Shown: positions 1-11,437 of the stretch, piece by piece
Position numbering within the stretch: position 1 is the stretch's first letter
Layout: each line of letters begins with the position of its first letter
Origin: a virus
Lineage: Duplodnaviria; Heunggongvirae; Uroviricota; Caudoviricetes
IMG/VR virus record: IMGVR_UViG_3300029705_000018
DNA length: 13,979 nt
Direction: 5' to 3' (one strand)
The notes under the pieces: generated by a model
Seen by the model: only the letters and a program-made list of their open reading frames with translations
What the model was told of the DNA's origin: nothing
Databases searched by the model: none
Position numbers and translations under genes: made by a program

Positions 1-330
1 ACTTCCACTTTCAATATCTACTGGATTACCATTAATATCTTCAGCGTAATTATTAGGATTTAATTTTACAACTTCTACTCCATCTTTCATAAGAACGGGA
101 TAATGTCCGAAAAATTCATCCCAAGCACTTGCGCCCGCAGACATTTCGCTAGCATCATCCTCATAAGAGCAACAAGTTAATGGATCTGAATTAGATAAAT
201 CAATAACAACAGTCATAGTCTTACCAAATGCTTTATTATATAATCTTACTAATTCATCTTCAATATGTTCTACATGAGAAGCACACCACTTATCTACTCC
301 ATCTTGAAGATTCATTCGTTCATAACTCAT
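1..330 (-). CDS. Putative tail-fibre/virion protein, N-terminal 110 aa (runs off the left edge)
   Basis: ATG at 330 with SD GGAGAG (340-345); open frame to position 1: MSYERMNLQDG...VVIDLSNSDPLTCCSYEDDASEMSAGASAWDEFFGHYPVLMKDG... The IDLSNS-P...AWDEFFGHYPVL segment resembles Firmicutes phage tail-associated proteins (recognition from memory). Not in the ORF track. Confidence 0.75.
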   Translation of the reverse strand, partial: MSYERMNLQDGVDKWCASHVEHIEDELVRLYNKAFGKTMTVVIDLSNSDPLTCCSYEDDASEMSAGASAWDEFFGHYPVLMKDGVEVVKLNPNNYAEDINGNPVDIESGS

Positions 331-336
331 TTATTT

Positions 337-765
337 TCACTCTCCTAAAATAAAATCACCAAGTAAACCTTCTCCAAGTAAAGAAGTTCCTCCAGTCAAA
401 GCAACTGTAATTATCTAGCCATTTTGAATTGAAAGAGAATAAGGCTAATTTGTTATTGAATCAATAATAATTAATGACTTTGCGGAACGAGTAGTTACCA
501 TTCCATTTTCATCAATAATAACATATTCATTGGGATTACCAATAATTTGATTCTATTTTTGATTCCAAGAATCTCTTTCTCCAACTTGTAAATGCACTTC
601 CTAATTATTAATATGATTATTTACATATTCAATATCAGCTTTAGTGTCATCAATAGCATTGATAATATTTACTAAGGTATCATTATTCGGATAGTCCTAC
701 ATATTAATTTTAGACCATAAATAAATAAGACCATCAAAGTCTAAAAATGATTTTGTTTTAGACAT
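337..765 (-). CDS. 142-aa virion-associated protein containing five in-frame TAG (Gln) codons
   Basis: SD AGGAGG then ATG at 765; TAG at 697-699, 601-603, 553-555, 445-447 and 415-417; TGA stop at 337-339. With TAG=Q it reads MSKTKSFLDFDGLIYLWSKINMQDYP...HINNQEVHLQVGERDSWNQKQNQ..., which matches the common phage fibre motif HxxNxxVHxxxxERxxWNxKQ. Confidence 0.85.
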
Positions 766-783
766 AGAACTTCCTCCTTATAT

Positions 784-812
784 ATTTTAACATAAAAATT
801 TTATAAAGTCAA
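784..812 (-). promoter_or_regulatory. Sigma-70/sigma-A-type promoter with extended -10
   Basis: TTGACT (812-807), 17-nt spacer, TG-n-TAAAAT (789-784); upstream of the 765 ATG. Confidence 0.7.
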
Positions 813-813
813 T

Positions 814-853
814 AAAAAAAGGGAGAGGGACAGTTATTTTATCCCTCTCCCTT
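814..853 (-). terminator. Intrinsic terminator after the 867-2096 gene
   Basis: AAGGGAGAGGGA / TCCCTCTCCCTT 12-bp stem followed by a T run on the minus strand. Confidence 0.85.
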
Positions 854-866
854 AAATTATTTTAAA

Positions 867-2096
867 TTAAGCGTTAGCAATAGCAGCTTCAATTTCAGCA
901 GTAGTTAAAGCAATTACTCTAGTATTAATTTCATTATCAGTATATGCCTTAGCATCAATTAATGCTTGTGCGGCAGCACCGTATGCATCATAAGTATTGG
1001 CGGGAATAGTATCCTGCTTCTTTGCTAATTCCTCATCAACATAAGTCTTATCGGCCTTTTTAGCAATTTCAGTAGCATTAGCGCTAACAGCATTCTGACG
1101 AGCAGTAACTTCAGCCTCTAAATCAGCCTGAGAAGCCTTTGAAGCGATAGCGTTAGACAATTCAGTCTTATCAGCAGTCTTTAGATAATCGCCTTCAACA
1201 ACAGCCAAACGACTATCAACGCCATTAATAGCATCAGACAATTCAGTCTTATCAGCAGCTTTTAGATAGTCATCTTCAACAGCCTTAACACGACTAGCCA
1301 AAGCAGTTAAATCAGCAGCCTTAGCATAATCACCAATAGACAAAGCAGTAATAGCGTCAGCAACATAAGCGCTAACAGTCTTATCACCAGTATCAACCTT
1401 ACTCTGCAAAGCTGCAATAGCTTCATTCATTGCAGAAGCATCATCTGGATGATCCTGAATCCAAGCAGCGATTTCAGCTAGAGTATCTAGAGACTCCTTA
1501 GCGTCCTCTGTGATTAACTGCTTAGCCAATTCTTCGTTAGCAATGGCACGAACAGACTTACCAGCGTCATCGCCCTCTAGAGTAGCAACACGACCAACTA
1601 AAGCAGTGTCATCATAAGTAGCAGCAGCCTGAGCGTCAGCGATCATCTGTACAACAGTCTTACCATCAGCAACTTCACCGACCAAAGATTCTAGTGCGTC
1701 AACTTCACCCTGTGCAGTGACAGCCTTGTCATCAGCAGCCTTTGCGGCAGCAGCATTAGCTTCTTCTGCAGCCTTAGCACGAAGAATTTCAGTATCTAAA
1801 GCAGCTTTAACAGAAGCAGCAGACTCAGAAGAACCACCATTAGCAGCATTTAGAGTTTCTTCTGCTTTCTTGTTAATATAAGCAACAATAGACTGTTGAT
1901 CAGTATAACCTTCTGGAATTTCACCAACATAAGAACGAAGATCTTCAATTTCTAATCCACGAGCAGTAGCCTCGCTTGCAATAGCTTCCGCAATTGCCTC
2001 ATCTCGAGCAGTAGCTTCAGCAGCAATTTTTTCAGCGATCTTGGACCATAAAGTACTTACGCCCTATTGGTCTAAAAATTTCTTTAAATCAGCCAT
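867..2096 (-). CDS. 409-aa Ala-rich coiled-coil virion/tail-fibre-like protein (true start 2096, one TAG at codon 11)
   Basis: SD AAGGAG then ATG at 2096: MADLKKFLDQ(TAG)GVSTLWSKIAEK... The frame is open from there through the tracked 867..1685 ORF. It contains the fibre motif LDTLAEIAAWIQDHPDDASAM and a 27-aa internal repeat. Confidence 0.85.
1155..1258. repeat. Intragenic direct repeat, 81-nt (27-aa) period
   Basis: agacaattcagtcttatcagcag is identical at 1155-1177 and 1236-1258 (YLKxADKTELSxAI twice). Confidence 0.85.
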
Positions 2097-2126
2097 TTTT
2101 ATTATCTCCTTTATTTTTTATTTTTT

Positions 2127-2588
2127 TTATTCGCAAATCTCAAGAATTTCTGTATGAGTTAAAGGAACTAATTTATTGAATAATTCTTGAGCATATGCCT
2201 TTGTAGCGTATTCTTCCAAAGCAATTTCTGGAATCTCAATTTTATTTAGAGCTTCTTGTAATTGTTCTTGAGTAACTAAGTCACTATCTACAAGCACTTC
2301 ATACTCATATAGCTCTTCATTCCATTGATATAACTTTTTCTCTTGGAATGCTTTATAGATGACATTTACATCACCAATTGCAGGAAAATTATAATGAGTA
2401 TTAGCATTAATAACTAATACTTTATCTTCTCCAAGATACTTTAAATCCAACCATTCATTGACACCGTCTCCAATTTTTAATTTACCAGTATCAATTTCAA
2501 ATCCAGGCTCACCAGGGGCTAAAACAGGATTTAAAGTGATCCAACTTGAAGCTTTACCTCTTTTTAATTGAATTGTATATGTAGCCAT
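2127..2588 (-). CDS. Virion protein with an Mtd_N / hyaluronidase-type N-terminal domain
   Basis: SD GAGGAGG before ATG at 2588; TIQLKRGKASSWITLNPVLAPGEPGFEIDTGKLKIGDGVNEWLDLKY is the Mtd N-terminal signature (IQLRRG...NPVL..GE.G.E.DTGK.KIGDG...W..L.Y). Confidence 0.8.
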   Translation of the reverse strand: MATYTIQLKRGKASSWITLNPVLAPGEPGFEIDTGKLKIGDGVNEWLDLKYLGEDKVLVINANTHYNFPAIGDVNVIYKAFQEKKLYQWNEELYEYEVLVDSDLVTQEQLQEALNKIEIPEIALEEYATKAYAQELFNKLVPLTHTEILEICE

Positions 2589-2603
2589 ACTTTTCCTCCT
2601 CAA

Positions 2604-2894
2604 TTAAAAAGGATCAGAGCCATCAATAGAGCCGCCGTCATAAATAAGATCACCAGATGGGGGATTATTTCCACCAGAATTACCTCCAGAAGAGCTTGAC
2701 ATACAATATGGATTAATTTCAATCCATTGCTTAGAGCCATTTAACATATAATATTTAGAACTACTAATAATAAAAATAGTGCTACCAGGAGTTAATCTAT
2801 TTTTATCTAATTGTTTTAAATCATCAATAGTATCTAAATCAAAATGCTTAATACCATATGTTATATGACCACTATTTGAATGAATATTAACCAT
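2604..2894 (-). CDS. 96-aa hypothetical virion-associated protein
   Basis: SD AAGGAGG before ATG at 2894 (MVNIHSN...); DTIDDLKQL...PGSTIFIISSSKYYMLNGSKQW motif, Gly/Ser linker, C-terminal IYDGG. Confidence 0.75.
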   Translation of the reverse strand: MVNIHSNSGHITYGIKHFDLDTIDDLKQLDKNRLTPGSTIFIISSSKYYMLNGSKQWIEINPYCMSSSSGGNSGGNNPPSGDLIYDGGSIDGSDPF

Positions 2895-3116
2895 TATAAC
2901 CCTCCTTTTTATGTAAGTAAATATCTTCATAATATTATAAAAAATTCATTGAGCATCTTAATACTTTTAGTCCAAAAATTTCTAAATCACTTTTTACTTT
3001 TGGGTTTTCGGCACTTTCGACTGGCACCGACCGGAGCAGGTTATCTGTTATATTCGGCCAAAAAATGGTAATATTTATCTAAAAATTTTTATATTTTATG
3101 AAAGGAGAGTGTTTAC

Positions 3117-3851
3117 ATGAAAATTATTACTAATAGAAATCACTCATATTTTATTAATGACTTGACCACAGCTGAACTCGGCAGCATTATTTTTGATACT
3201 GATGAAAATAAAATGTATATTATGTTAGAACCTGGTGTTCTAACTGAAATTGCTGCTGAAGATGTTGGTGTTGAAACACTAGAAGCTTTGACTGAAGCAA
3301 TTGCGGCTGGCGGTGAAGTAGTTGTTTCCGCAAGTATTGATGCTCCTGCTGGATTTGCCGTTACCGCAGACACTACTGTTGTAAATAATGGTGAAATCAC
3401 CATTAAAGAAGATACTGAAGGTAACGGTGTATTTACTGTAACTAATGGTACTTTAACTCTAGATGGTAAAGGCACTATCAATGGATTGGGTAATAATGAT
3501 TGGAGTATGGCCGTATGGGCCAAGGAAAATGGTAAAGTAATTATTAATAATGGTTATTTTACTAATGTTGGCGCTAAATCTGTTGAAGATTCTGAACATT
3601 TTGACTTAATCTATGCTTCTGGAAATGCTCAAGTTGAAATCAATGGTGGCGAATTCAAGTGCGAGACTCCTAAGTGGACTCTAAATATTAAAGACAAAGA
3701 CCGTGCGACCGCAAGCATTGTCGTTAAGGGTGGTAAGTTTCACGGCTTTAATCCATCTGATTGCGCAAGCGAAGGTCCAAATACTAATTTTGTAGCTCCT
3801 GGCTATAAAGTGGTTGAAGAGAATGGCGTATTCACAGTAATGCCAGAATAA
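3117..3851 (+). CDS. 244-aa putative beta-helix surface/adhesin-like protein
   Basis: SD AAGGAG; repeated beta-strand/Gly motifs (GTLTLDGKGTING, GKVIINNGYF, AQVEINGGEF, SIVVKGGKFHGFNP). It is the only plus-strand gene supported in the window. Confidence 0.75.
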   Translation: MKIITNRNHSYFINDLTTAELGSIIFDTDENKMYIMLEPGVLTEIAAEDVGVETLEALTEAIAAGGEVVVSASIDAPAGFAVTADTTVVNNGEITIKEDTEGNGVFTVTNGTLTLDGKGTINGLGNNDWSMAVWAKENGKVIINNGYFTNVGAKSVEDSEHFDLIYASGNAQVEINGGEFKCETPKWTLNIKDKDRATASIVVKGGKFHGFNPSDCASEGPNTNFVAPGYKVVEENGVFTVMPE

Positions 3852-3856
3852 AAATT

Positions 3857-3893
3857 AAAAGGCTGAGATAGAAATTCTATCTCAGCCTTTTTT
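3857..3893 (+). terminator. Intrinsic terminator (possibly bidirectional)
   Basis: aaaaggctgagataga-aat-tctatctcagcctttt followed by a T run. Confidence 0.9.
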
Positions 3894-3903
3894 GTTTTTC
3901 TAT

Positions 3904-3934
3904 AAAAAAAAATCCCCTCTCCGAAGAGAGGGGA
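3904..3934 (-). terminator. Intrinsic terminator after the endonuclease gene
   Basis: TCCCCTCTC-TTCG-GAGAGGGGA followed by T9 on the minus strand. Confidence 0.9.
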
Positions 3935-3996
3935 AGGATTCGAGATTACTTGATAACGGCGTAACGCTCGCTATCCAGCTTCTGCGGCCGTGCCGA

Positions 3997-4749
3997 TCAA
4001 GAGATTGGTAAGTCAGGCTCACGCACGAGATATTTATCGCCCATTATCATTTCTAATGTAATTTTATCTTTTTCCCAATATGGGATACGAACCAATGGGA
4101 TATTATGGGTTAATGCATATTCATTTTTAACAGCATCCCTTTGTTTTTGTAATTCTAATCCACCCCACTTATCAACACTATGATAATGTTGTTCTCCGTC
4201 AAATTCAATAAGGCGTACTATTTTATCATTTTCAACAATAGCAAAATCAAAACGACTTTTTGGCAAATCTAAAAATACATATTCCTCAATGAAATTAATA
4301 CCTTCAAAGATTAAACAATTTAAAACATTGGTCGCACCAACTGAACGATGATAACAGCCACAAGAAACGGTTCTATTTTCATCTTTTCTGCGCAATTCAT
4401 GGCCTCGAACTTCAATAATTTTTCCACAATCGCATTGACAAATCCAATATAATTCTCCGCCATTTCCTTTGCGCTCACTGCGTTGTTTAACAACCAATTT
4501 ACCAAATCGTTTGTTTAACATTTCTTCTTCACTTTTTTGGTATTTTGCTTTTCTTAATTGCTCTTGACGATAGCAACCACAGCTCGATATATCACCATTT
4601 CTCAATGAGATACTTTTTACACTTTTTATTGTGCCACATTCGCACTAACATATCCAATAACTGCCACCAGTTGTTTTTCTATTTTTATCTCTCTCTAAGA
4701 CAGTTAATTTACTAAATTTTTGATTTGTTAAATCTATTAATTTAGACAT
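3997..4749 (-). CDS. 250-aa putative homing endonuclease: two Cys-rich (WxCxCxCG...SCGC) DNA-binding repeats plus a C-terminal PD-(D/E)XK (DUF559/Vsr-like) nuclease domain
   Basis: SD AAGGAG then ATG at 4749 (MSKLIDLTNQKFSKLTVLER...YWIC(TAG)CECG); the second repeat reads YWICQCDCG; the C-terminus has RFDFAI...LIEFDGEQHY...RDAVKNEYA...LVRIPY. Confidence 0.8.
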
Positions 4750-4819
4750 TACACTCAACTCCTTCTATAATATATAAGGAATCTTTTGGAATATTAAATC
4801 TGTTTTGTCCAGAAATAAC

Positions 4820-4851
4820 AAAAAACCCGCCTCGCCGAACGGCGAGACGGG
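4820..4851 (-). terminator. Intrinsic terminator after the DUF2828 gene
   Basis: CCCGTCTCGCCG-TT-CGGCGAGGCGGG followed by TTTTTT. Confidence 0.9.
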
Positions 4852-4861
4852 CCGGCCGCAT

Positions 4862-6373
4862 TTAGCCGATAACCTCATAGCGAGGAGAGTCCAACTTCTC
4901 CATCATAAGATCCCAGCCAGTTTTGCCAGAAAGAATCTGTTCAAAAATACTAGGACTCATACCAGAAACATAAGAAATGTCTCTTACTCCAATATCTTCA
5001 GGGATATTGTTCTGTCTTGCCTGAACGTTCCAGTAGATAAGCTTAGGCATACGGTACCCATGACGAGCCCACTTATCTCTAATAGACTCCATCAAGGTCT
5101 GAGGGTTCCAGGATTGACGACCATAACCATGACCAGTTCCTGCATCAAATTCCATATCTGACAGAATTAGAATGTTCTGAGGCAGCTCATCCTGGCCGCA
5201 ACCATTATTCAGAGCGGTCTGCAGCAACATATCGAAGGTGGCTTCGATGTTGGTGCTCTCACACAGGTTGGTGCGGTAGATACGATAGACCTTGTCGCAG
5301 AAGTCTACGCCGCTGGTCTCGATCAGCTGAGGACGAGTGGAGAAAGATACGTAGTGGTTTGCGAAGGGGCCGTTAGCACGCTCGGCGCAGTACAGACCCA
5401 GGGAAATAGCTACGTTCAGAGGAGTTGCGTCACCGCCGTACCAGGTCATGGAAGCGGAGGTATCAACAACAGCCAGACCATTGAAGGACTTGCCGTTGAA
5501 GTAATCCTGCAGGTTCTCCCAGTACTTGTTCACCATCAGACGATCGGTGTTATCGATAGGCAGATGGCAAGCACGCAAAGCCTTGGAAACAACCTCGTAA
5601 GGATACAGAGCCTTGGCGTTAACCTTGGTGGTAGTATCCTTGGCGAAAGCCTCGTAGGTCTTGACCTCGGGATTGCGCTTCATACGCTCAATGTCGTGAC
5701 GAGCAAAGGCGTTCTTGTACTTGATACCGGCCTTAGAAGGGATCTTATCGAACTCGATCTCATCCCAACGACCCTCGGACATCAGACGCTCCAGGACGTT
5801 GATGCGGGCACGCAGAACAGACAGAGTCTTACGGTACTGCTTGGGGGTCATGCCAATGAACTTACGAACCTTGGCAGCAGTCTTCTTAGTCTTCACAGAG
5901 GAAGTGTTCTCAGAAGGCATCCACTTACCCAGCAGAGAAGGGGTCTTACATTGGACGTCCAAAGCCAGCTGATGTTTGACGATGTTCAGTGCGTCAGCCT
6001 CCAGAGGAGTACCGATGAACACGAACAGGTCATCCCATCGACCGAACTCAGGGACGTGAGTCAGGTTACGACGCATAGCGTCAGTATCGTAGGAAGCCAG
6101 CCACTTAGTAGCGACACGGAAGAACCGGCGCTCACCCTGGCCACCGCGCACGTCACGGATGTAGAACAGACACTTCAGAGCGTAAGAAGGATTCTCGTCG
6201 AAAGCCTTCTTAAACAGGAAGATAACATCTTCATCGGTGCGGGTACGGTAGGCCGCACCCATAGCGAACAGGTCCATCAGACCGTCCATGGTAGACTTAT
6301 GAGTCAGGGCACCATTCTCAGTGCGAGTGTAGTTAGAAGCGGACTTCATACCTTCCAGAAAAATATTGCTCAT
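4862..6373 (-). CDS. 503-aa DUF2828-family (TROVE/Ro60-like) protein with a C-terminal vWA domain
   Basis: TENGA, LFYIRDVRGGQGER, PEFGRWDDL and KWMPSE motifs of DUF2828; MIDAS motifs VVDTSASM and ILSDMEFD; SD AGGAG; noticeably higher GC than the flanks; no TAG codons. Confidence 0.8.
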   Translation of the reverse strand: MSNIFLEGMKSASNYTRTENGALTHKSTMDGLMDLFAMGAAYRTRTDEDVIFLFKKAFDENPSYALKCLFYIRDVRGGQGERRFFRVATKWLASYDTDAMRRNLTHVPEFGRWDDLFVFIGTPLEADALNIVKHQLALDVQCKTPSLLGKWMPSENTSSVKTKKTAAKVRKFIGMTPKQYRKTLSVLRARINVLERLMSEGRWDEIEFDKIPSKAGIKYKNAFARHDIERMKRNPEVKTYEAFAKDTTTKVNAKALYPYEVVSKALRACHLPIDNTDRLMVNKYWENLQDYFNGKSFNGLAVVDTSASMTWYGGDATPLNVAISLGLYCAERANGPFANHYVSFSTRPQLIETSGVDFCDKVYRIYRTNLCESTNIEATFDMLLQTALNNGCGQDELPQNILILSDMEFDAGTGHGYGRQSWNPQTLMESIRDKWARHGYRMPKLIYWNVQARQNNIPEDIGVRDISYVSGMSPSIFEQILSGKTGWDLMMEKLDSPRYEVIG

Positions 6374-6495: not shown

Positions 6496-7596
6496 TTACA
6501 TTGCACTGGACTTATCGGTATTGCATCGGCGGCACAGCATCTGACAATTGGACTCAATTGTCTTACCGCCCTTAGACCAGGGAATGATATGATCGGCGTG
6601 CATGGAAGTTCGAGCATAGTGCTTGCCGCAGATGGGGCAATAACCCTTCTGCTTCTCATAAACACGACCCTTAACTGCTTCGGGGAAAGTTCGAATACTC
6701 AAACACTTTTCGTCACCGCTCAGAACGTAGGCATAAACACCCTTTCTCTTGGTGACTTCTTCATCAGCCATCAGCTTGCTGACCATTTCTTCCAGCTCGT
6801 CGGGATCAAGATCTTCTTCACCGAATTCATTATACAACAGACCCCACTGGACACCCTTCATATCTTTACGATAGTTAGGGAAAGTTTCCTTTACCCAGTT
6901 CATTACATTCATAAAATAATCAACCAGGTGTTTTGCATTTTCATCCAGGTGATGCTGAGCCATATACTCAACAATATGTTCTTTACCACCAGAAATCCAA
7001 GTCAAAACAGTCTCCAGAAGATCCTGTCGATTAGGAGTGCCAGTCATATAATCGGCCGCAATCTGAGAAGCGGGGCAGTTGGTCTTAGAGAAAAACTTCT
7101 TTGCAGAAGTAAGCCAAGCGCCAGTAAAGTTGACATTTCTTAGCTCCTGGTCATTCAGCTTTTCGCCGTATGTATTAACGACACGGAACCATTCCATCTG
7201 TTCCTCTTTAGTACCTTCGCAGATATAAACAGATAACTCGTAGTTCAGAAAATCTTCATAACGCTCGGGATAAGTCTTCTTCCAGTTATGGATATACATA
7301 TCCTGGAAGTTAAAACCACCAGTAGCGAAAGAACAAATGGAAAGAGTTCTCTGCTGGCCATCAAGCACCTCAAAGGTACCATCGCAGTTATCGACCCAAT
7401 ACATGGTATTCAAAGGAAAGCCATGCATAACTGTATTGATAACAGCAACCTGTTGATCAGGTTTATAAATGAATTCTCGCTGATACTTAGGGCGTACATT
7501 TAACTTGCCGCCATAAGCTACAACGCCATTCTCTTCGTCATTTTCATATCCTGCAATAATTTCTCGAATAGCAATCTTCTTCTCGGTAATCTTCAT
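6496..7596 (-). CDS. DUF262 (ParB-like, GmrSD-type) plus C-terminal HNH endonuclease
   Basis: PKYQREFIY, VLDGQQRTLS, FRVVNTYGEKLN (DUF262 motifs); CPICG...HADHIIPWSKGGKTIESNCQMLCRRCN (HNH). Start taken at ATG 7596; the track's GTG at 7605 is possible. Confidence 0.85.
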   Translation of the reverse strand: MKITEKKIAIREIIAGYENDEENGVVAYGGKLNVRPKYQREFIYKPDQQVAVINTVMHGFPLNTMYWVDNCDGTFEVLDGQQRTLSICSFATGGFNFQDMYIHNWKKTYPERYEDFLNYELSVYICEGTKEEQMEWFRVVNTYGEKLNDQELRNVNFTGAWLTSAKKFFSKTNCPASQIAADYMTGTPNRQDLLETVLTWISGGKEHIVEYMAQHHLDENAKHLVDYFMNVMNWVKETFPNYRKDMKGVQWGLLYNEFGEEDLDPDELEEMVSKLMADEEVTKRKGVYAYVLSGDEKCLSIRTFPEAVKGRVYEKQKGYCPICGKHYARTSMHADHIIPWSKGGKTIESNCQMLCRRCNTDKSSAM

Positions 7597-7627
7597 CCAT
7601 ATCACCTTTCCTTATCTTTGTATATAT

Positions 7628-7694: not shown

Positions 7695-8885
7695 TTAATA
7701 CAAATAACTCATATCCATAGAAGTTCGCTTAATTAAAACTCGTGCAAAAATCTTCTTACCATTTAAATACAAGCTGCCGCAGCCAAAACAAGATTTGTCA
7801 GAAAAAGAAGAATTTGCAATCAGCTCAAACTGATCAAGACAGTGATGATTAACATATGTGATGGGAACTGCCATTACACCAGCATAATCAGAAGGGATGT
7901 TTTCTACTCTACCCACCAAGATAATATCAGAATTATCCAAAGTTGGATATGACTCTCTCTTATTAGTATCAGAGTAATAGGTCGCAGTTAACATCAGAGG
8001 ATCATCTCTCCTGGAAACCTTAAGATTGGTATACCAGGAAACTGCAGGAACTTTACCAATTTTATTACCGTCTTCATCGATAATATCACTCTCGTAATCG
8101 TCGGGCATGGTAAACTTCATAGTAGCATTGGTTTTATAACCATACCACATATTACCCATCTTGAAATTGTAGAACACATTTTTCAAATTGATAGAAGTGT
8201 TATTACCAAGGATTAAAAATTTCTTCTTATGATCCATCAGTAAGTCAATTAATTTATTGAACTCACTAAAAGGAGGATTCGTGATAACAATATCACATTT
8301 ATCCAGTTCTTCAATGCTCTCATCAGACAGGAAACTACCAGTGCCCTGCAAAGGAGTTTCGATAATCACAGAGGGGTCACTGTCTTCCACAGTATACTTC
8401 ACAGCCTGACCTTCTGGAGCATAAGAAATGCCAACCAAACGGGTTAAGCCAAAAGCATCAAAATTCTTGAAGAAGTAAATAAAGAAATTACTATTCGGAC
8501 TGTCATTACAGTTACAGAAAATAGACTTGCCATAAAATTGCTGCTTATAACGGAAACATTCAGCTTCAATCTCGCTCATAAGAGTATAAAACTCATTCTT
8601 TTTAGCTTTCTTGGCTTCATTGCCCTTTGCATTAGTGCAACCCTTTTTGGATTCAATCTTATCCATCTCTAAGAGTTCATCAATGTTTTCAACAAAACCG
8701 TATTTAACCGGAGTACCGGCAATCTTATACATATAACCGCGAGTGACAATACCATTTAAAGTTGCGGCACGGATCGTCTCACCGCTCTTTGCGCTCAGTT
8801 CTGCTGCGCTAAACACGCGATCCTTAAAGTGCTTGAGCGCCAGATCAAACGCATTTTGACCTTTTTCAGTAAAATTACTAGGCAT
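7695..8885 (-). CDS. Adenine-specific DNA methyltransferase, EcoRI family, with an ~85-aa N-terminal extension
   Basis: AKKAKKNEFYT, GKSIFCNCND, GTGSFLSDES and DIVITNPPFS (motif IV), YAGVMAVPIT; SD AAGGAG. Confidence 0.85.
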   Translation of the reverse strand: MPSNFTEKGQNAFDLALKHFKDRVFSAAELSAKSGETIRAATLNGIVTRGYMYKIAGTPVKYGFVENIDELLEMDKIESKKGCTNAKGNEAKKAKKNEFYTLMSEIEAECFRYKQQFYGKSIFCNCNDSPNSNFFIYFFKNFDAFGLTRLVGISYAPEGQAVKYTVEDSDPSVIIETPLQGTGSFLSDESIEELDKCDIVITNPPFSEFNKLIDLLMDHKKKFLILGNNTSINLKNVFYNFKMGNMWYGYKTNATMKFTMPDDYESDIIDEDGNKIGKVPAVSWYTNLKVSRRDDPLMLTATYYSDTNKRESYPTLDNSDIILVGRVENIPSDYAGVMAVPITYVNHHCLDQFELIANSSFSDKSCFGCGSLYLNGKKIFARVLIKRTSMDMSYLY

Positions 8886-9776: not shown

Positions 9777-10043
9777 CTACATACAACCAGTGCGACGAAA
9801 TTTTGTATTGGACTTTGTGGTGATTGATTTGATAGTAAGTTCGCCAGGAGTGCGCTTAAAGATTATGCGATAATGCTCCATCTTATAGCGATACAGGTCA
9901 TCTTCCATACCTCTTTGGATTTGTTTGAGAGGTTCAATATGACCTGTATTATTTTGAATATTTGTCAAAGCCTTATTCAATTTTTTAGCTGTAGGCTTAT
10001 CAGCCTTGTCAAGCACCTTTTGTGCGGCCTTGGCAATTACCAT
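9777..10043 (-). CDS. RelE/ParE-superfamily toxin-like protein (88 aa), no adjacent antitoxin gene
   Basis: Pattern AKAAQKVLDKADKPTAKKLNKAL...GHIEPLK...LYRYKMEHYRIIF...LTIKSI matches the RelE fold consensus; SD GAGG. Confidence 0.65.
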   Translation of the reverse strand: MVIAKAAQKVLDKADKPTAKKLNKALTNIQNNTGHIEPLKQIQRGMEDDLYRYKMEHYRIIFKRTPGELTIKSITTKSNTKFRRTGCM

Positions 10044-10065
10044 AAATAATACCTCAAAGTTTTAT

Positions 10066-10519
10066 TTATTGCCCTTACTTGATACCGTTCAAGCGGACTT
10101 CAGAGGACGGGCAAACCCCTCAGACTTTCTGCGCTGGGCGTCATCTACACCCCAAACCCACACATCCGGGACTCTTCTCGGTTATCGCGCGCTTCCGACT
10201 ATGTTTGCTTAGCCATAGCAGCATATTCCCTTTGCTGATTTGCGCTTCCCTATGCAGGGAACGACTTCGGCTACATTGGCTCAGAAGCCTCATTCTTTCT
10301 AGGAGGTCATGCCATCAGCACCGCATGAGGGTTTCAGCTTTACCCACAAGCAATCAATAATCTCTATGCAGAAATCATTGGACAGTTTTTCACCCATTCA
10401 AGGCGTAGTCATGGATAAAAGCTACCCCCTCATTACTTGGGCCTGACAACTCTGGTAGTGGCTCCACAAGCACTCCCATGACGAGTCCTTGCTTCATCGC
10501 CGCCGCATTCCGCGGGATA
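10066..10519 (-). ncRNA. Candidate large structured ncRNA (~450 nt; ROOL/GOLLD-like)
   Basis: No SD-led ORF; many hairpins, e.g. TTCCCT-GCAT-AGGGAA (10246-10261), ATTTCT-GCAT-AGAGAT (10360-10375), CCTCAT...ATGAGG, CTATG...CATAG, GAGG...CCTC, CTTGA-ACGGTA-TCAAG; lies in a tRNA cluster. Confidence 0.6.
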
Positions 10520-10520
10520 A

Positions 10521-10666
10521 TGGTCGGTAGCCTTGGACTCGAACCAAGGCCCACAGAACTCACTAACTTACGCACCTTGCCTTGCCGTGTATCCGGATTG
10601 GCCGCACCGATGTTACATAAGGTTTTGGAACTGTTTATTCAGATACCCTACACTGAATCACTACCG
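10521..10666 (-). ncRNA. 146-nt tRNA-like RNA with a 74-nt insert in place of the anticodon loop (possible intron-containing tRNA-Trp(CCA))
   Basis: Acceptor CGGTAGT/GCTACCG + A + CCA; D stem TTCA/TGAA; T arm CTTGG-TTCGAGT-CCAAG; anticodon stem ACAG/CTGT enclosing 10630-10557. Confidence 0.75.
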
Positions 10667-11284: not shown

Positions 11285-11437
11285 ATATGATAAAAACAAC
11301 GAGAAAGGCTAATCTTAGGGCTTAGGTCGGGTCTAATTTCTAGACACCCGATTGCCACTTAGTCCCTACTGTAAAACCTTACTCGTCCCAAAAGGCGGTT
11401 CTGAGGAATTTCTCCCGTGCGCAAAAGCAGAACCGGT

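What the first reader, a model, noticed from the sequence alone, without database searches (positions are those of the whole stretch)
10066..10519. ~450-nt ornate non-coding RNA with twin CU-GCAU-AG hairpins
Seen: a long, GC-richer, ORF-free tract with many stems. Two separate hairpins share the identical cap CTGCATAG (10246-10261 and 10360-10375), and the UGCA in it is self-complementary, so kissing-loop or multimer contacts are possible. Established knowledge: ROOL and GOLLD RNAs are large phage/tRNA-cluster-associated RNAs that form multimeric assemblies. Assignment to either family is unverified.
Basis: partly seen in the sequence, partly recalled or inferred. Interest (0 to 1): 0.72.

Follow-up and report, generated by a model that had tools for sequence, protein, structure and literature searches.

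The report
Modular drum-like RNA in phage tRNA array
The gene-free tract is a real, conserved folded RNA on the minus strand of a large gut or rumen phage, built from swappable modules whose invariant core resembles the known but unexplained 'drum' RNA; it is not ROOL or GOLLD, and what it does is still a matter of inference.

Summary
Window 10068-10501 is non-coding, and both hairpins with the shared cap exist. On the minus strand, the strand of all 39 tRNA genes, the cap reads CUGCAUAG.

Neither ROOL nor GOLLD matches, although both models score strongly on a related contig searched as a control.

I found seven other contigs carrying parts of this RNA. They show it is a chain of modules:
- A: a 117-nt, almost invariant, probably pseudoknotted 5' core.
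- B1: an optional insert holding twin hairpin 1.
- B2: a three-helix stem.
- H2: twin hairpin 2, variable.
- C: a 170-nt 3' domain.

Paired changes in other contigs support helices in A, B2, H2 and C.

Module A gives weak matches in both directions with the Rfam drum family (22.3 bits against a cut-off of 43). In one contig it lies directly behind a true drum RNA.

Closely related phages lack the RNA, and it sits on either side of a RelE/ParE-type toxin gene.

My best reading is an accessory, trans-acting drum-class RNA cut out of the tRNA transcript. It possibly dimerises through a GC-rich self-complementary loop and possibly counters an RNase toxin.

Earlier notes of this scan report divergent drum copies in the tRNA islands of other phages.

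The parts
10502..10520 (-). Linker between the CCA end of the neighbouring tRNA-shaped RNA (10521-10666) and module A. It holds a window-specific small hairpin (CCGC GGAAU GCGG, 10503-10515).
   Evidence: Sequence. This stretch is not conserved in any homologue (alignment A5, columns 1-6).
10381..10501 (-). Module A, the drum-like 5' core.
- P1: 10499-10501 with 10460-10462.
- J: GAUGAA.
- P2: 10483-10492 with 10466-10475.
- Invariant P2 loop GUCAUGG.
- Candidate pseudoknot: 10478-10482 with 10408-10412.
- P3: 10443-10446 with 10381-10385.
- Inner hairpins: 10423-10427 with 10413-10417, and 10401-10405 with 10391-10395.
   Evidence: Present in 7 of 7 contigs that cover this part, at about 90-100% identity. 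Of the modelled cells, 98.8% are paired against 34-48% when partners are slid. Seven pairs change on both sides, and the covariation score is 0.208 against 0.092 in shuffles (0 of 500 shuffles reach it). The Rfam drum model scores it 22.3 bits. The module-A model R1 scores a true drum 14.2 bits over the same layout.
10326..10380 (-). Module B1, an optional insert. It holds twin hairpin 1 (10356-10379, GCAU loop 10366-10369) and the hairpin GGGU-AAAGCUGAA-ACCC (10329-10345).
   Evidence: Found only in the window and L023; absent from L008, L025, L026, L029 and L032. Between the window and L023 the hairpin-1 stem has three paired changes while the GCAU loop is kept (sequences).
10268..10323 (-). 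Module B2, an extended three-helix stem.
- CGGU/GCCG: 10320-10323 with 10268-10271.
- UGGC/GCCA: 10311-10314 with 10277-10280.
- GACCUC/GAGG..UC: 10303-10308 with 10284-10291.
- Apical loop CUAGAAAGAAU.
   Evidence: Present in 5 contigs: the window, L023, L025, L026 and L032. UGGC/GCCA becomes CGAC/GUCG in L026. With hairpin 2 included, 94.2% of cells are paired against 35-53% when slid, and 5 pairs change on both sides.
10246..10261 (-). Twin hairpin 2 (UUCCCU GCAU AGGGAA), with the loop at 10252-10255.
   Evidence: A hairpin stands at this position in 5 contigs, with different stems and loops: GCAU in the window and L023, AAUUAA in L025, ACUUUAA in L026. The closing pair changes from U-A to C-G in L023.
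10068..10237 (-). Module C, the 3' domain.
- Ca: 10219-10237, invariant loop AAGGGAAUA.
- Cb: 10199-10218.
- Cc: 10178-10198, stem UCGG/CCGA, with the self-complementary run GCGCGCG at 10186-10192 in its loop.
- Cd: 10136-10153.
- Ce: 10103-10121.
- Cf: 10077-10094.
- Candidate pairing of the Ce loop (UUGCCC, 10109-10114) with the 3' tail (GGGCAA, 10069-10074).
   Evidence: Present in the window, L023, L008 and L006. Of the modelled cells, 92.6% are paired against 37-45% when slid, and 6 pairs change on both sides. The Cc stem changes G-C to A-U in L008. The Cc loop is self-complementary in all four contigs: AUCGCGCGAU in L023 and AUCACGUGAU in L008. In L023, Cf is replaced by a different hairpin sequence at the same place.
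9777..10043 (-). Neighbour, not part of the RNA: an 88-aa RelE/ParE-fold toxin ORF with a GAGG ribosome-binding site at 10052-10055.
   Evidence: Pfam ParE_toxin 25.1 bits (cut-off 23) and PHROG 1213 'RelE-like toxin' E=1.7e-9. There are 86 homologues.
10521..10666 (-). Neighbour, not part of the RNA: a tRNA-shaped RNA ending in CCA. Trimming of its 3' end would define the 5' end of the RNA studied here.
Evidence: Sequence. It is 94.6% identical in L002-L005, which lack the tract.

Best explanation
Window 10068-10501 (minus strand) encodes an accessory, modular non-coding RNA of large TAG-recoded gut or rumen phages.

Its functional core is module A. This is a 117-nt, nearly invariant and probably pseudoknotted domain, and a divergent relative of the drum RNA motif (Rfam RF02958). 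The core is followed by add-on hairpin domains (B1, B2, H2, C) that are swapped, lost or replaced between phages.

No promoter or terminator was found beside the RNA, so it is probably transcribed with the tRNA array (inferred). Its ends would then be made by the tRNA-processing enzymes: 3' trimming of the upstream tRNA-shaped RNA, and, in relatives, RNase P cleavage of the tRNA that abuts its 3' end (inferred).

It most likely acts in trans through the invariant loops of module A, as a protein-binding antidote or decoy RNA against an RNase-type toxin or defence. The GC-rich self-complementary loop of hairpin Cc may pair two copies.

How firm each step is:
- Shown: the RNA is real, it is on the minus strand, it is modular, and its helices are supported by paired changes.
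- Probable: kinship with drum.
- Inferred: processing, dimerisation and function.
For: Reality and strand:
- Seven other contigs carry parts of the RNA, always in the tRNA orientation.
- The antisense ORF is non-coding.

Modularity:
- L008 has A+C only.
- L025 and L026 have A+B2+H2 plus a different 3' module.
- L032 has A+B2 plus another tail.
- L006 has a D-like module followed by C.
- L029 has a true drum followed by A.

Accessory status:
- Close relatives that keep the flanking genes lack the RNA: L002-L005, L009 and L016-L021.
- The genome holds a single copy.

Kinship with drum:
- The drum model scores module A 22.3 bits (E=0.0036 for this genome), matching P1, GAUGAA, P2, GGA, P1', AGRGUU, P3 and GAAAAAC.
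- Model R1, built from module A, aligns the true L029 drum over the same layout (14.2 bits, E=1.4e-4 in a search of 460 nt).
- In L029 a true drum (67.7 bits) and module A stand in tandem.

Processing:
- No promoter-like or terminator-like site lies between 10044 and 10520.
- The conserved 3' end lies within about 3-6 nt of a tRNA 5' end in L008, L023 and L025.

Dimerisation:
- The Cc loop is self-complementary in 4 of 4 contigs. The step from L023 to L008 is a symmetric double change that keeps a 10-nt self-complementary run, at positions too close together to pair within one hairpin.
- Self-complementary loops and kissing loops are established contacts in natural RNA multimers (PMC12990946).

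Toxin link:
- The RNA lies next to the RelE/ParE-fold ORF in 3 loci, on either side of it.
- Weinberg et al. 2017 report that drum RNAs are associated with a nearby protein gene on either side and in either orientation (PMC5737381).
Against: - The drum score is below the family cut-off (22.3 against 43 bits). Module A of L029 was not reported at E<=10, so the match is fragile. The 3' terminator typical of drum is absent.
- The pseudoknot in module A has no paired-change support, because all its positions are invariant.
- There are few homologues: 7 for module A, 5 for B2 and 4 for C. They are related to one another, so the covariation figures rest on few independent events.
- There is no expression or end-mapping data.
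- The toxin link is weak. Four or five loci have the RNA without the toxin gene in the sequence available. At least ten toxin-gene loci have neither this RNA nor a drum match. Adjacency may only reflect a shared cargo slot between tRNA-Lys and tRNA-Met.
- The double change in the Cc loop is a single event, which I estimate has a chance probability of about 0.07.
Confidence: 0.55

Rival explanations
1. One reading: one large ornate RNA of about 450 nt that, like ROOL, GOLLD or OLE, self-assembles into a multimer through kissing loops. The twin CUGCAUAG hairpins would be the contacts.
For: - The setting in a phage tRNA array is the same as for ROOL and GOLLD. L029 carries ROOL, GOLLD, drum and module A in one array.
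- The modules lie only 2-4 nt apart, which fits one continuous chain.
- Several loops carry self-complementary runs: UGCA twice, and GCGCGC in Cc.
- The identical twin caps are unlikely by chance (P about 0.007), and the GCAU loops persist in L023 while the stems change.
Against: - No ROOL, GOLLD or OLE match on the tract.
- No long-range helix or multistem junction is supported; every supported helix is local.
- The modules occur independently. L008 lacks both twin hairpins yet keeps A and C.
- GCAU cannot pair with GCAU.
- The UGCA run is lost in hairpin 2 of L023.
Confidence: 0.17
2. A cis-acting partner of the adjacent RelE/ParE-fold toxin gene. It would be either its 5' leader controlling translation or a dedicated RNA antitoxin. 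That would be a type III-like pair with a RelE-fold toxin that has no protein antitoxin beside it.
For: - In the window and L006 module C runs straight into the ribosome-binding site and start codon of the toxin ORF. There the upstream 190 nt are better conserved (94%) than the alignment that runs on through the ORF and tRNA-Met (88% overall).
- No antitoxin ORF flanks the toxin gene in the window.
- Unchecked notes of this scan say canonical drum RNAs sit in front of a PBECR4 nuclease gene, a family named for the Barnase-EndoU-ColicinE5/D-RelE fold.
Against: - In L008 the RNA lies downstream of the toxin gene.
- L023, L025, L026 and L032 have the RNA without the gene in the sequence available.
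- L007, L009, L010-L015 and L016-L021 have the gene without the RNA or any drum match.
- There are no tandem repeats of the ToxI kind, and no terminator between the RNA and the ORF.
Confidence: 0.15
3. Several independent small RNAs (A, B2+H2, C) that merely lie side by side and are processed apart, as the tRNAs of the array are. The 450-nt tract would then have no function as a unit.
For: - The modules recombine freely between phages.
- All supported helices are local.
- Other notes of this scan describe similar chains of small RNAs in phage tRNA islands (unchecked).
Against: - The gaps between modules are only 2-4 nt and no processing signal is evident.
- Wherever its 5' side can be read, C (or its D-like relative) follows a drum-type module: 3 of 4 C copies, with L006 cut off by the contig end.
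- B2 always follows A directly.
Confidence: 0.1
4. Non-functional spacer, a decayed gene remnant, or a permuted tmRNA (as ARAGORN proposes at a relaxed threshold).
For: - ARAGORN at 80% stringency calls a permuted tmRNA across 10000-10618.
- The RNA is dispensable in close relatives.
Against: - Paired changes support helices in three modules, and module A is near-invariant across contigs whose flanks differ.
- No Rfam tmRNA model matches.
- The proposed tag frame carries a 1-nt indel in L023, and its peptide was 'not identified'.
Confidence: 0.03

Closest known systems
drum RNA motif (Rfam RF02958; Weinberg et al. 2017, PMC5737381)
   Same: - The 5' half has the same layout and the same conserved letters: P1 (GGC/GCC), GAUGAA, a variable P2 hairpin, GGA, then AGRGUU, and a P3 that closes just after GAAAAAC.
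- In both, the P2 loop can pair with the interior of P3. For drum this rests only on my reading of the L029 copy and the consensus line.
- Both occur in phage tRNA arrays. In L029 a true drum and module A stand in tandem.
- The function of drum is unknown as well.
   Different: - It scores 22.3 bits against a cut-off of 43.
- The interior of P3 is different and longer, with two hairpins and another pseudoknot sequence.
- It has no Rho-independent terminator.
- It carries 170-320 nt of further modules (B1, B2, H2, C) that drum lacks.
ROOL (RF03087) and GOLLD (RF02032) RNAs
   Same: All are non-coding RNAs of phages and prophages placed among tRNA genes. Self-association through loop contacts is possible here too.
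   Different: - There is no sequence or structure match.
- This RNA is a chain of local hairpins, without the multistem junctions and long-range helices of ROOL and GOLLD.
- Its modules occur separately.
Bacteriophage T4 species 1 and species 2 stable RNAs (rnaC, rnaD) in the T4 tRNA cluster
   Same: They are small stable RNAs of unknown function, encoded inside a phage tRNA cluster and matured from the tRNA precursor transcript (from my own knowledge and note e1-5399092).
   Different: They are unrelated in sequence, much shorter, and not modular. No drum-like core has been reported for them.
HIV-1 dimerisation initiation site (DIS) kissing loop
   Same: A hairpin loop displays a GCGCGC-type self-complementary hexamer flanked by purines. 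The window loop is AAGCGCGCGAUAA (comparison from my own knowledge).
   Different: This is an analogy, not homology. Dimerisation has not been tested here, and the loop is longer (13 nt).
Type III toxin-antitoxin RNAs (ToxI/ToxN and relatives)
   Same: A structured RNA lies next to an RNase-type toxin gene that has no protein antitoxin, in a phage-related setting.
   Different: There are no tandem repeats and no terminator between RNA and toxin. The toxin has a RelE/ParE fold rather than a ToxN fold, and the RNA and the gene are often found apart.

Membership tests
ROOL (RF03087) | Covariance-model score at or above the gathering score of 99.1 bits | tested here: not met
   No match even at E<=10 on the 501-nt tract. 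Positive control: ROOL scores 306 bits on L029.
ROOL (RF03087) | [quoted passage not shown] | tested here: not met
   Consensus folds of the modules give only local helices. No long-range closing helix is supported.
GOLLD (RF02032) | Covariance-model score at or above 150 bits | tested here: not met
   No match at E<=10. Positive control: GOLLD scores 162 bits on L029.
drum (RF02958) | Covariance-model score at or above 43 bits | tested here: not met
   The window's module A scores 22.3 bits. Module A of L029 is not reported at E<=10. The true drum on L029 scores 67.7 bits.
drum (RF02958) | Core layout: P1 - GUUGAA-type joiner - P2 hairpin - GGA - P1', then GGGUU and a P3 closing after GAAAA | tested here: met
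   The alignment to the drum model covers positions 1-112 with these letters matched. Model R1 aligns a true drum over the same layout (14.2 bits). P1, P2 and P3 are supported in alignment A5.
drum (RF02958) | Rho-independent terminator at the 3' end (PMC5737381) | tested here: not met
   No terminator-like site on the minus strand between 10044 and 10520. Module A is followed directly by B1/B2 or C.
drum (RF02958) | Association with one particular protein domain encoded nearby (PMC5737381, supplementary text not available) | tested here: inconclusive
   A RelE/ParE-fold ORF is adjacent in 3 of 8 loci. The other loci have T5orf172 or PD-(D/E)XK-like ORFs or only tRNAs beside the RNA. The PBECR4 link claimed in earlier notes was not tested.
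tmRNA (including permuted forms) | Match to the Rfam tmRNA models, and a conserved tag reading frame | tested here: not met
   No tmRNA model matches on the tract. ARAGORN's relaxed call has an unidentified tag, and the frame carries a 1-nt indel in L023.
Type III antitoxin RNA (ToxI-like) | Tandem direct repeats upstream of the toxin gene, separated from it by a terminator | tested here: not met
   No tandem repeats, only 11-12-nt chance-size direct repeats, and no terminator.

The most novel reading that the evidence does not exclude
The RNA is a phage-borne antidote or decoy of the drum class. Its invariant pseudoknotted core would bind and silence a BECR/RelE-fold RNase. That RNase would be either the orphan RelE/ParE-type toxin next to it or a host drum-linked defence nuclease. 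The RNA would act as a dimer held by a DIS-like GC-rich kissing loop. This would be a new kind of RNA-protein toxin-antitoxin or counter-defence pair, and it would give the orphan drum family a function.
Probability: 0.15. Interest if true: 0.75.

Novelty: new variant of a known kind. Interest (0 to 1): 0.45.

Why it matters
Drum is one of the widespread bacterial RNA motifs that Weinberg et al. (2017) singled out as likely to do something biochemically sophisticated, and it still has no function.

This work adds a divergent, extended form of drum that phages carry inside tRNA arrays, sometimes in tandem with a true drum and beside ROOL and GOLLD. That gives a natural set of variants showing which parts are indispensable (module A) and which are add-ons.

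The position beside an orphan RelE-fold toxin gene and the self-complementary loop give two cheap bench tests: toxicity rescue and dimerisation.

It also shows that 'ORF-free, hairpin-rich' tracts in phage tRNA islands tend to be chains of small modules rather than single giant RNAs. That matters for how such regions should be annotated.

Tried and rejected
Family assignments rejected:
- ROOL, GOLLD, OLE, RNase P, tmRNA, group I/II introns and T-box: no Rfam match on the tract at E<=10.
- Permuted tmRNA, proposed by ARAGORN at a relaxed threshold: no model match, and the tag frame is not conserved.
- tRNA with an intron spanning the tract: ARAGORN with introns allowed finds none.
- A resemblance I noticed by eye to RNase P conserved regions (GAGAAGAGUCCCGG, UAGAUGA...CAGAAA): no model match, and the order of the elements does not fit.
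- A kink-turn or C/D-box reading of the B2 internal loops: the letters are not conserved in L026 and L032.

Coding rejected:
- Minus-strand frames are closed under the standard code and with TAG=Q.
- The antisense 93-aa ORF is not under coding selection.

Homologue searches that found nothing or little:
- blastn against the phage collection found nothing.
- Four exact-pattern scans of viral contigs for motifs of the tract found only L006/L022.
- Two scans of genome contigs found nothing.
- The metagenome scan gave two true and two chance hits.
- phmmer of an antisense pseudo-protein against 1.84 billion representatives added nothing.
- The productive trick was to look up spurious antisense ORFs in the protein collection.

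Other checks:
- No canonical drum in five related phage records.
- No drum or module A near the toxin homologues of nine other loci.
- blastn of the L029 drum against phages and plasmids, meant to check the claimed drum-PBECR4 link, found nothing.
- No enrichment of 4-nt self-complementary runs in loops overall, by rough count; only Cc stands out.

Full report
**Setting.** The window is the first 14 kb of a 138.8-kb IMG/VR phage contig. The contig carries 39 tRNA genes, all on the minus strand, including a CUA suppressor tRNA. Earlier notes of this scan describe the phage as a roughly 200-kb gut or rumen phage.

Read along the minus strand, the flagged tract lies in this order:
- tRNA-Lys(CUU), 10748-10670;
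- a tRNA-shaped RNA ending in CCA, 10666-10521;
- the tract itself;
- an 88-aa ORF, 10043-9777;
- tRNA-Met, 9769-9693.

The ORF has a RelE/ParE fold: Pfam ParE_toxin 25.1 bits against a cut-off of 23, and PHROG 1213 'RelE-like toxin' at E=1.7e-9.

- All three minus-strand frames are closed by all three kinds of stop codon.
- The only sizeable ORF is antisense (10079-10360). Against an 87%-identical homologue its substitutions are spread 15/18/15 over the codon positions and it has 1-2-nt indels, so it is not coding.
- G+C is 0.48-0.51.
- Both hairpins exist where stated. They share an 8-nt cap that reads CUGCAUAG on the minus strand. The stems are 11 bp and 6 bp.
- Such twins arose in 0.74% of 5000 dinucleotide-preserving shuffles.

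**ROOL or GOLLD?** No. Rfam 15 gives no ROOL, GOLLD, OLE, tmRNA, RNase P or intron match on the tract, even at E<=10 on a 501-nt search. The search does work: on the related contig L029 it scores ROOL at 306 bits, GOLLD at 162 bits and drum at 67.7 bits.

**Homologues.** The tract is missing from several close relatives.
- Four phages keep the tRNA-shaped RNA at 94.6% identity but lack both the tract and the toxin ORF (L002-L005).
- L009 has the tRNA-shaped RNA followed 24 nt later by the toxin ORF.
- L016-L021 have the toxin ORF without the tract.

Parts of the tract turned up in seven other contigs:
- L006/L022: the 3' 190 nt at 94% identity, directly upstream of the toxin ORF.
- L008: the 5' 118 nt joined to the 3' 170 nt, lying downstream of the toxin ORF and ending 3 nt before tRNA-Met.
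- L023/L024: full length at 87% identity, between tRNA-Lys(UUU) and tRNA-Cys, with no toxin gene.
- L025, L026 and L032: the 5' core and the middle stem, each with a different 3' part.
- L029: the 5' core directly behind a true drum RNA.

L023, L025 and L032 were found by looking up spurious antisense ORFs in the protein collection. Exact-pattern scans of the viral, genome and metagenome collections found little more. The family is therefore rare in the data reachable here.

**Anatomy (minus strand).**
- Module A, 10501-10381, is present in all seven contigs that cover this region, at about 90-100% identity.
- Module B1, 10380-10326, holds twin hairpin 1 and a second hairpin. It occurs only in the window and L023.
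- Module B2, 10323-10268, is a three-helix stem found in five contigs.
- Twin hairpin 2, 10261-10246, marks a position that holds a hairpin in five contigs, with varying stems and loops.
- Module C, 10237-10068, occurs in four contigs.

The modules sit 2-4 nt apart.

| Module (alignment) | Cells paired | Paired when partners are slid | Pairs changed on both sides | Covariation score vs shuffled mean |
|---|---|---|---|---|
| A (A5, 7 sequences) | 98.8% | 34-48% | 7 | 0.208 vs 0.092 (0 of 500 shuffles reach it) |
| B2 + hairpin 2 (A7, 5 sequences) | 94.2% | 35-53% | 5 | 0.267 vs 0.139 |
| C (A6, 4 sequences) | 92.6% | 37-45% | 6 | 0.248 vs 0.162 |

The sequences are few and related, so these figures rest on few independent events.

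The conserved G-U pairs, the tRNA orientation in every locus, and the fold z-scores (-1.6 on minus, +0.3 on plus) place the RNA on the minus strand. All supported helices are local. I found no long-range closing helix.

**Module A and drum.** The best Rfam match on the tract is drum (RF02958): 22.3 bits against a cut-off of 43, with E=0.0036 for this genome.
- The alignment covers the whole model. It matches P1 (GGC/GCC), GAUGAA, the P2 hairpin, GGA, P1', AGRGUU, and a P3 closing after GAAAAAC.
- In the other direction, model R1 built from module A aligns the true L029 drum over the same layout, at 14.2 bits and E=1.4e-4 in a 460-nt search.
- In L029 the true drum and module A stand head to tail.
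- The invariant P2 loop GUCAU can pair with AUGAC inside P3 (10478-10482 with 10408-10412). By my reading of the L029 copy and the consensus, drum allows a pairing of the same topology. Because every position is invariant, the pseudoknot in module A has no paired-change support.
- Against membership: the score is below the cut-off, module A of L029 was not reported at E<=10, and the 3' terminator typical of drum is absent.

I rate common descent with drum at about 0.6, and I file module A as a divergent variant rather than a member.

**The twin hairpins.**
- Hairpin 1 belongs to the optional insert B1.
- Between the window and L023 its stem has three paired changes while the GCAU loop is kept.
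- In hairpin 2 the closing pair changes from U-A to C-G and GCAU is again kept. The loops therefore seem constrained in this lineage.
- However, GCAU cannot pair with GCAU.
- The UGCA self-complementary run is lost in hairpin 2 of L023. L025, L026 and L032 have other loops there, and L008 has neither hairpin.

They are decoration, not the core.

**A better candidate for RNA-RNA contact.** This is hairpin Cc (10198-10178). Its stem changes from UCGG/CCGA to UCAG/CUGA in L008. Its 13-nt loop holds a GC-rich self-complementary run in all four contigs:
- window: GCGCGC;
- L006: CGCGCG;
- L023: AUCGCGCGAU;
- L008: AUCACGUGAU.

The difference between L023 and L008 is a symmetric double change at positions that would enclose only 2 nt. 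It cannot be a pair within one hairpin, which points to pairing between two copies. This is one event, with a chance probability I estimate at about 0.07. Self-complementary and kissing loops are established contacts of natural RNA multimers (PMC12990946).

**Transcription and ends (inferred).** No promoter-like or terminator-like site lies between 10044 and 10520. The nearest minus-strand promoter-like sites lie upstream of tRNA-Lys(CUU). The RNA starts 19 nt after the CCA of the tRNA-shaped RNA. In L008, L023 and L025 its conserved 3' end lies within about 3-6 nt of a tRNA 5' end. The tRNA-processing enzymes would therefore define its ends. In the window it would run into the toxin mRNA unless it is cut.

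**Relation to the toxin gene.** The RNA lies beside the RelE/ParE-fold ORF in three loci: upstream in the window and L006, downstream in L008. Each also occurs without the other:
- the RNA without the ORF in L023, L025, L026 and L032, in the sequence available;
- the ORF without the RNA, and without any drum match, in L007 and L009-L021.

All of these lie in the same slot between a tRNA-Lys and tRNA-Met or tRNA-Cys, so adjacency may be shared cargo space. Weinberg et al. report that drum is associated with a nearby protein gene on either side. Unchecked notes of this scan name that gene as a PBECR4 nuclease. I could not test this. I therefore keep the antidote or decoy function as the preferred but weakly supported mechanism.

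**Verdict.**
- This is a real non-coding RNA on the minus strand.
- It is not ROOL or GOLLD.
- It is a modular, accessory, drum-like RNA with newly defined add-on domains.
- Its function is unknown; the antidote/decoy and dimer ideas are testable.
- Earlier notes of this scan report divergent drum copies and chains of small RNAs in the tRNA islands of other phages. The general picture is not unique to this window.

Noticed in passing
window 11298-11387 (-); also L008 1765-1852, L009 2078-2165, L017 1-191: Partial matches to the 3' part of OLE RNA (RF01071), just above the gathering score: 52.9 bits against 50, model positions 436-595. In L017 the match reaches 56.9 bits over positions 354-616 and is cut by the contig end. 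It lies in the 690-nt gene-free gap between tRNA-Lys(UUU) and tRNA-Lys(CUU), so these phages may carry an OLE-related RNA.
   Followed up: no
window 12920-13027 (-) and 4862-6373 (-): A sub-threshold YrlA (Y RNA-like) match of 40.8 bits (cut-off 69) lies right after the CUA suppressor tRNA. A 503-aa DUF2828+DUF7788 protein is encoded 6.5 kb away. Weaker YrlA-like matches recur in L007, L009 and L029.
   Followed up: no
window 9777-10043 (-); L007, L009-L021: The RelE/ParE-fold toxin ORF is embedded in phage tRNA arrays, has 86 homologues, and has no antitoxin ORF beside it in the window. In L010 and L012-L015 it is flanked by 113-126-nt matches to the tRNA model, which look like tRNA-shaped RNAs with inserts.
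   Followed up: partly
L029 (JAEIGA010055792.1) 1-6016: One 6-kb tRNA array holds ROOL (1366-2015), GOLLD (5003-5494), a true drum (215-325) and module A (96-222), together with 14 tRNA genes.
   Followed up: partly
L026 2508-3194 (-); L007 2388-2912 (+); L023 25-447 (-): Endonuclease-type ORFs lie next to the RNA or the toxin gene: a T5orf172/MUG113 ORF with an HTH in L026, and PD-(D/E)XK-like ORFs in L007 (by eye) and L023 (weak, 17 bits). This fits a recombination-prone cargo slot.
   Followed up: no
window 6496-7605 (-) and 7695-8885 (-): A GmrSD_N+HNH nuclease gene and an EcoRI-type adenine methyltransferase gene lie just downstream of the tRNA array.
   Followed up: no
L025 805-917 (-), L026 3212-3324 (-), L006 1-82 (+): A further conserved module ('D') has the form CCRGAG..hairpin..CYGG-GGAAGARGAUG..GAGUGUUUGCCUACUC..AAAGGCU. 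Its 3' part resembles the 3' part of module C, with GCCU/AGGC in place of GCCC/GGGC. In L006 it precedes module C.
   Followed up: partly
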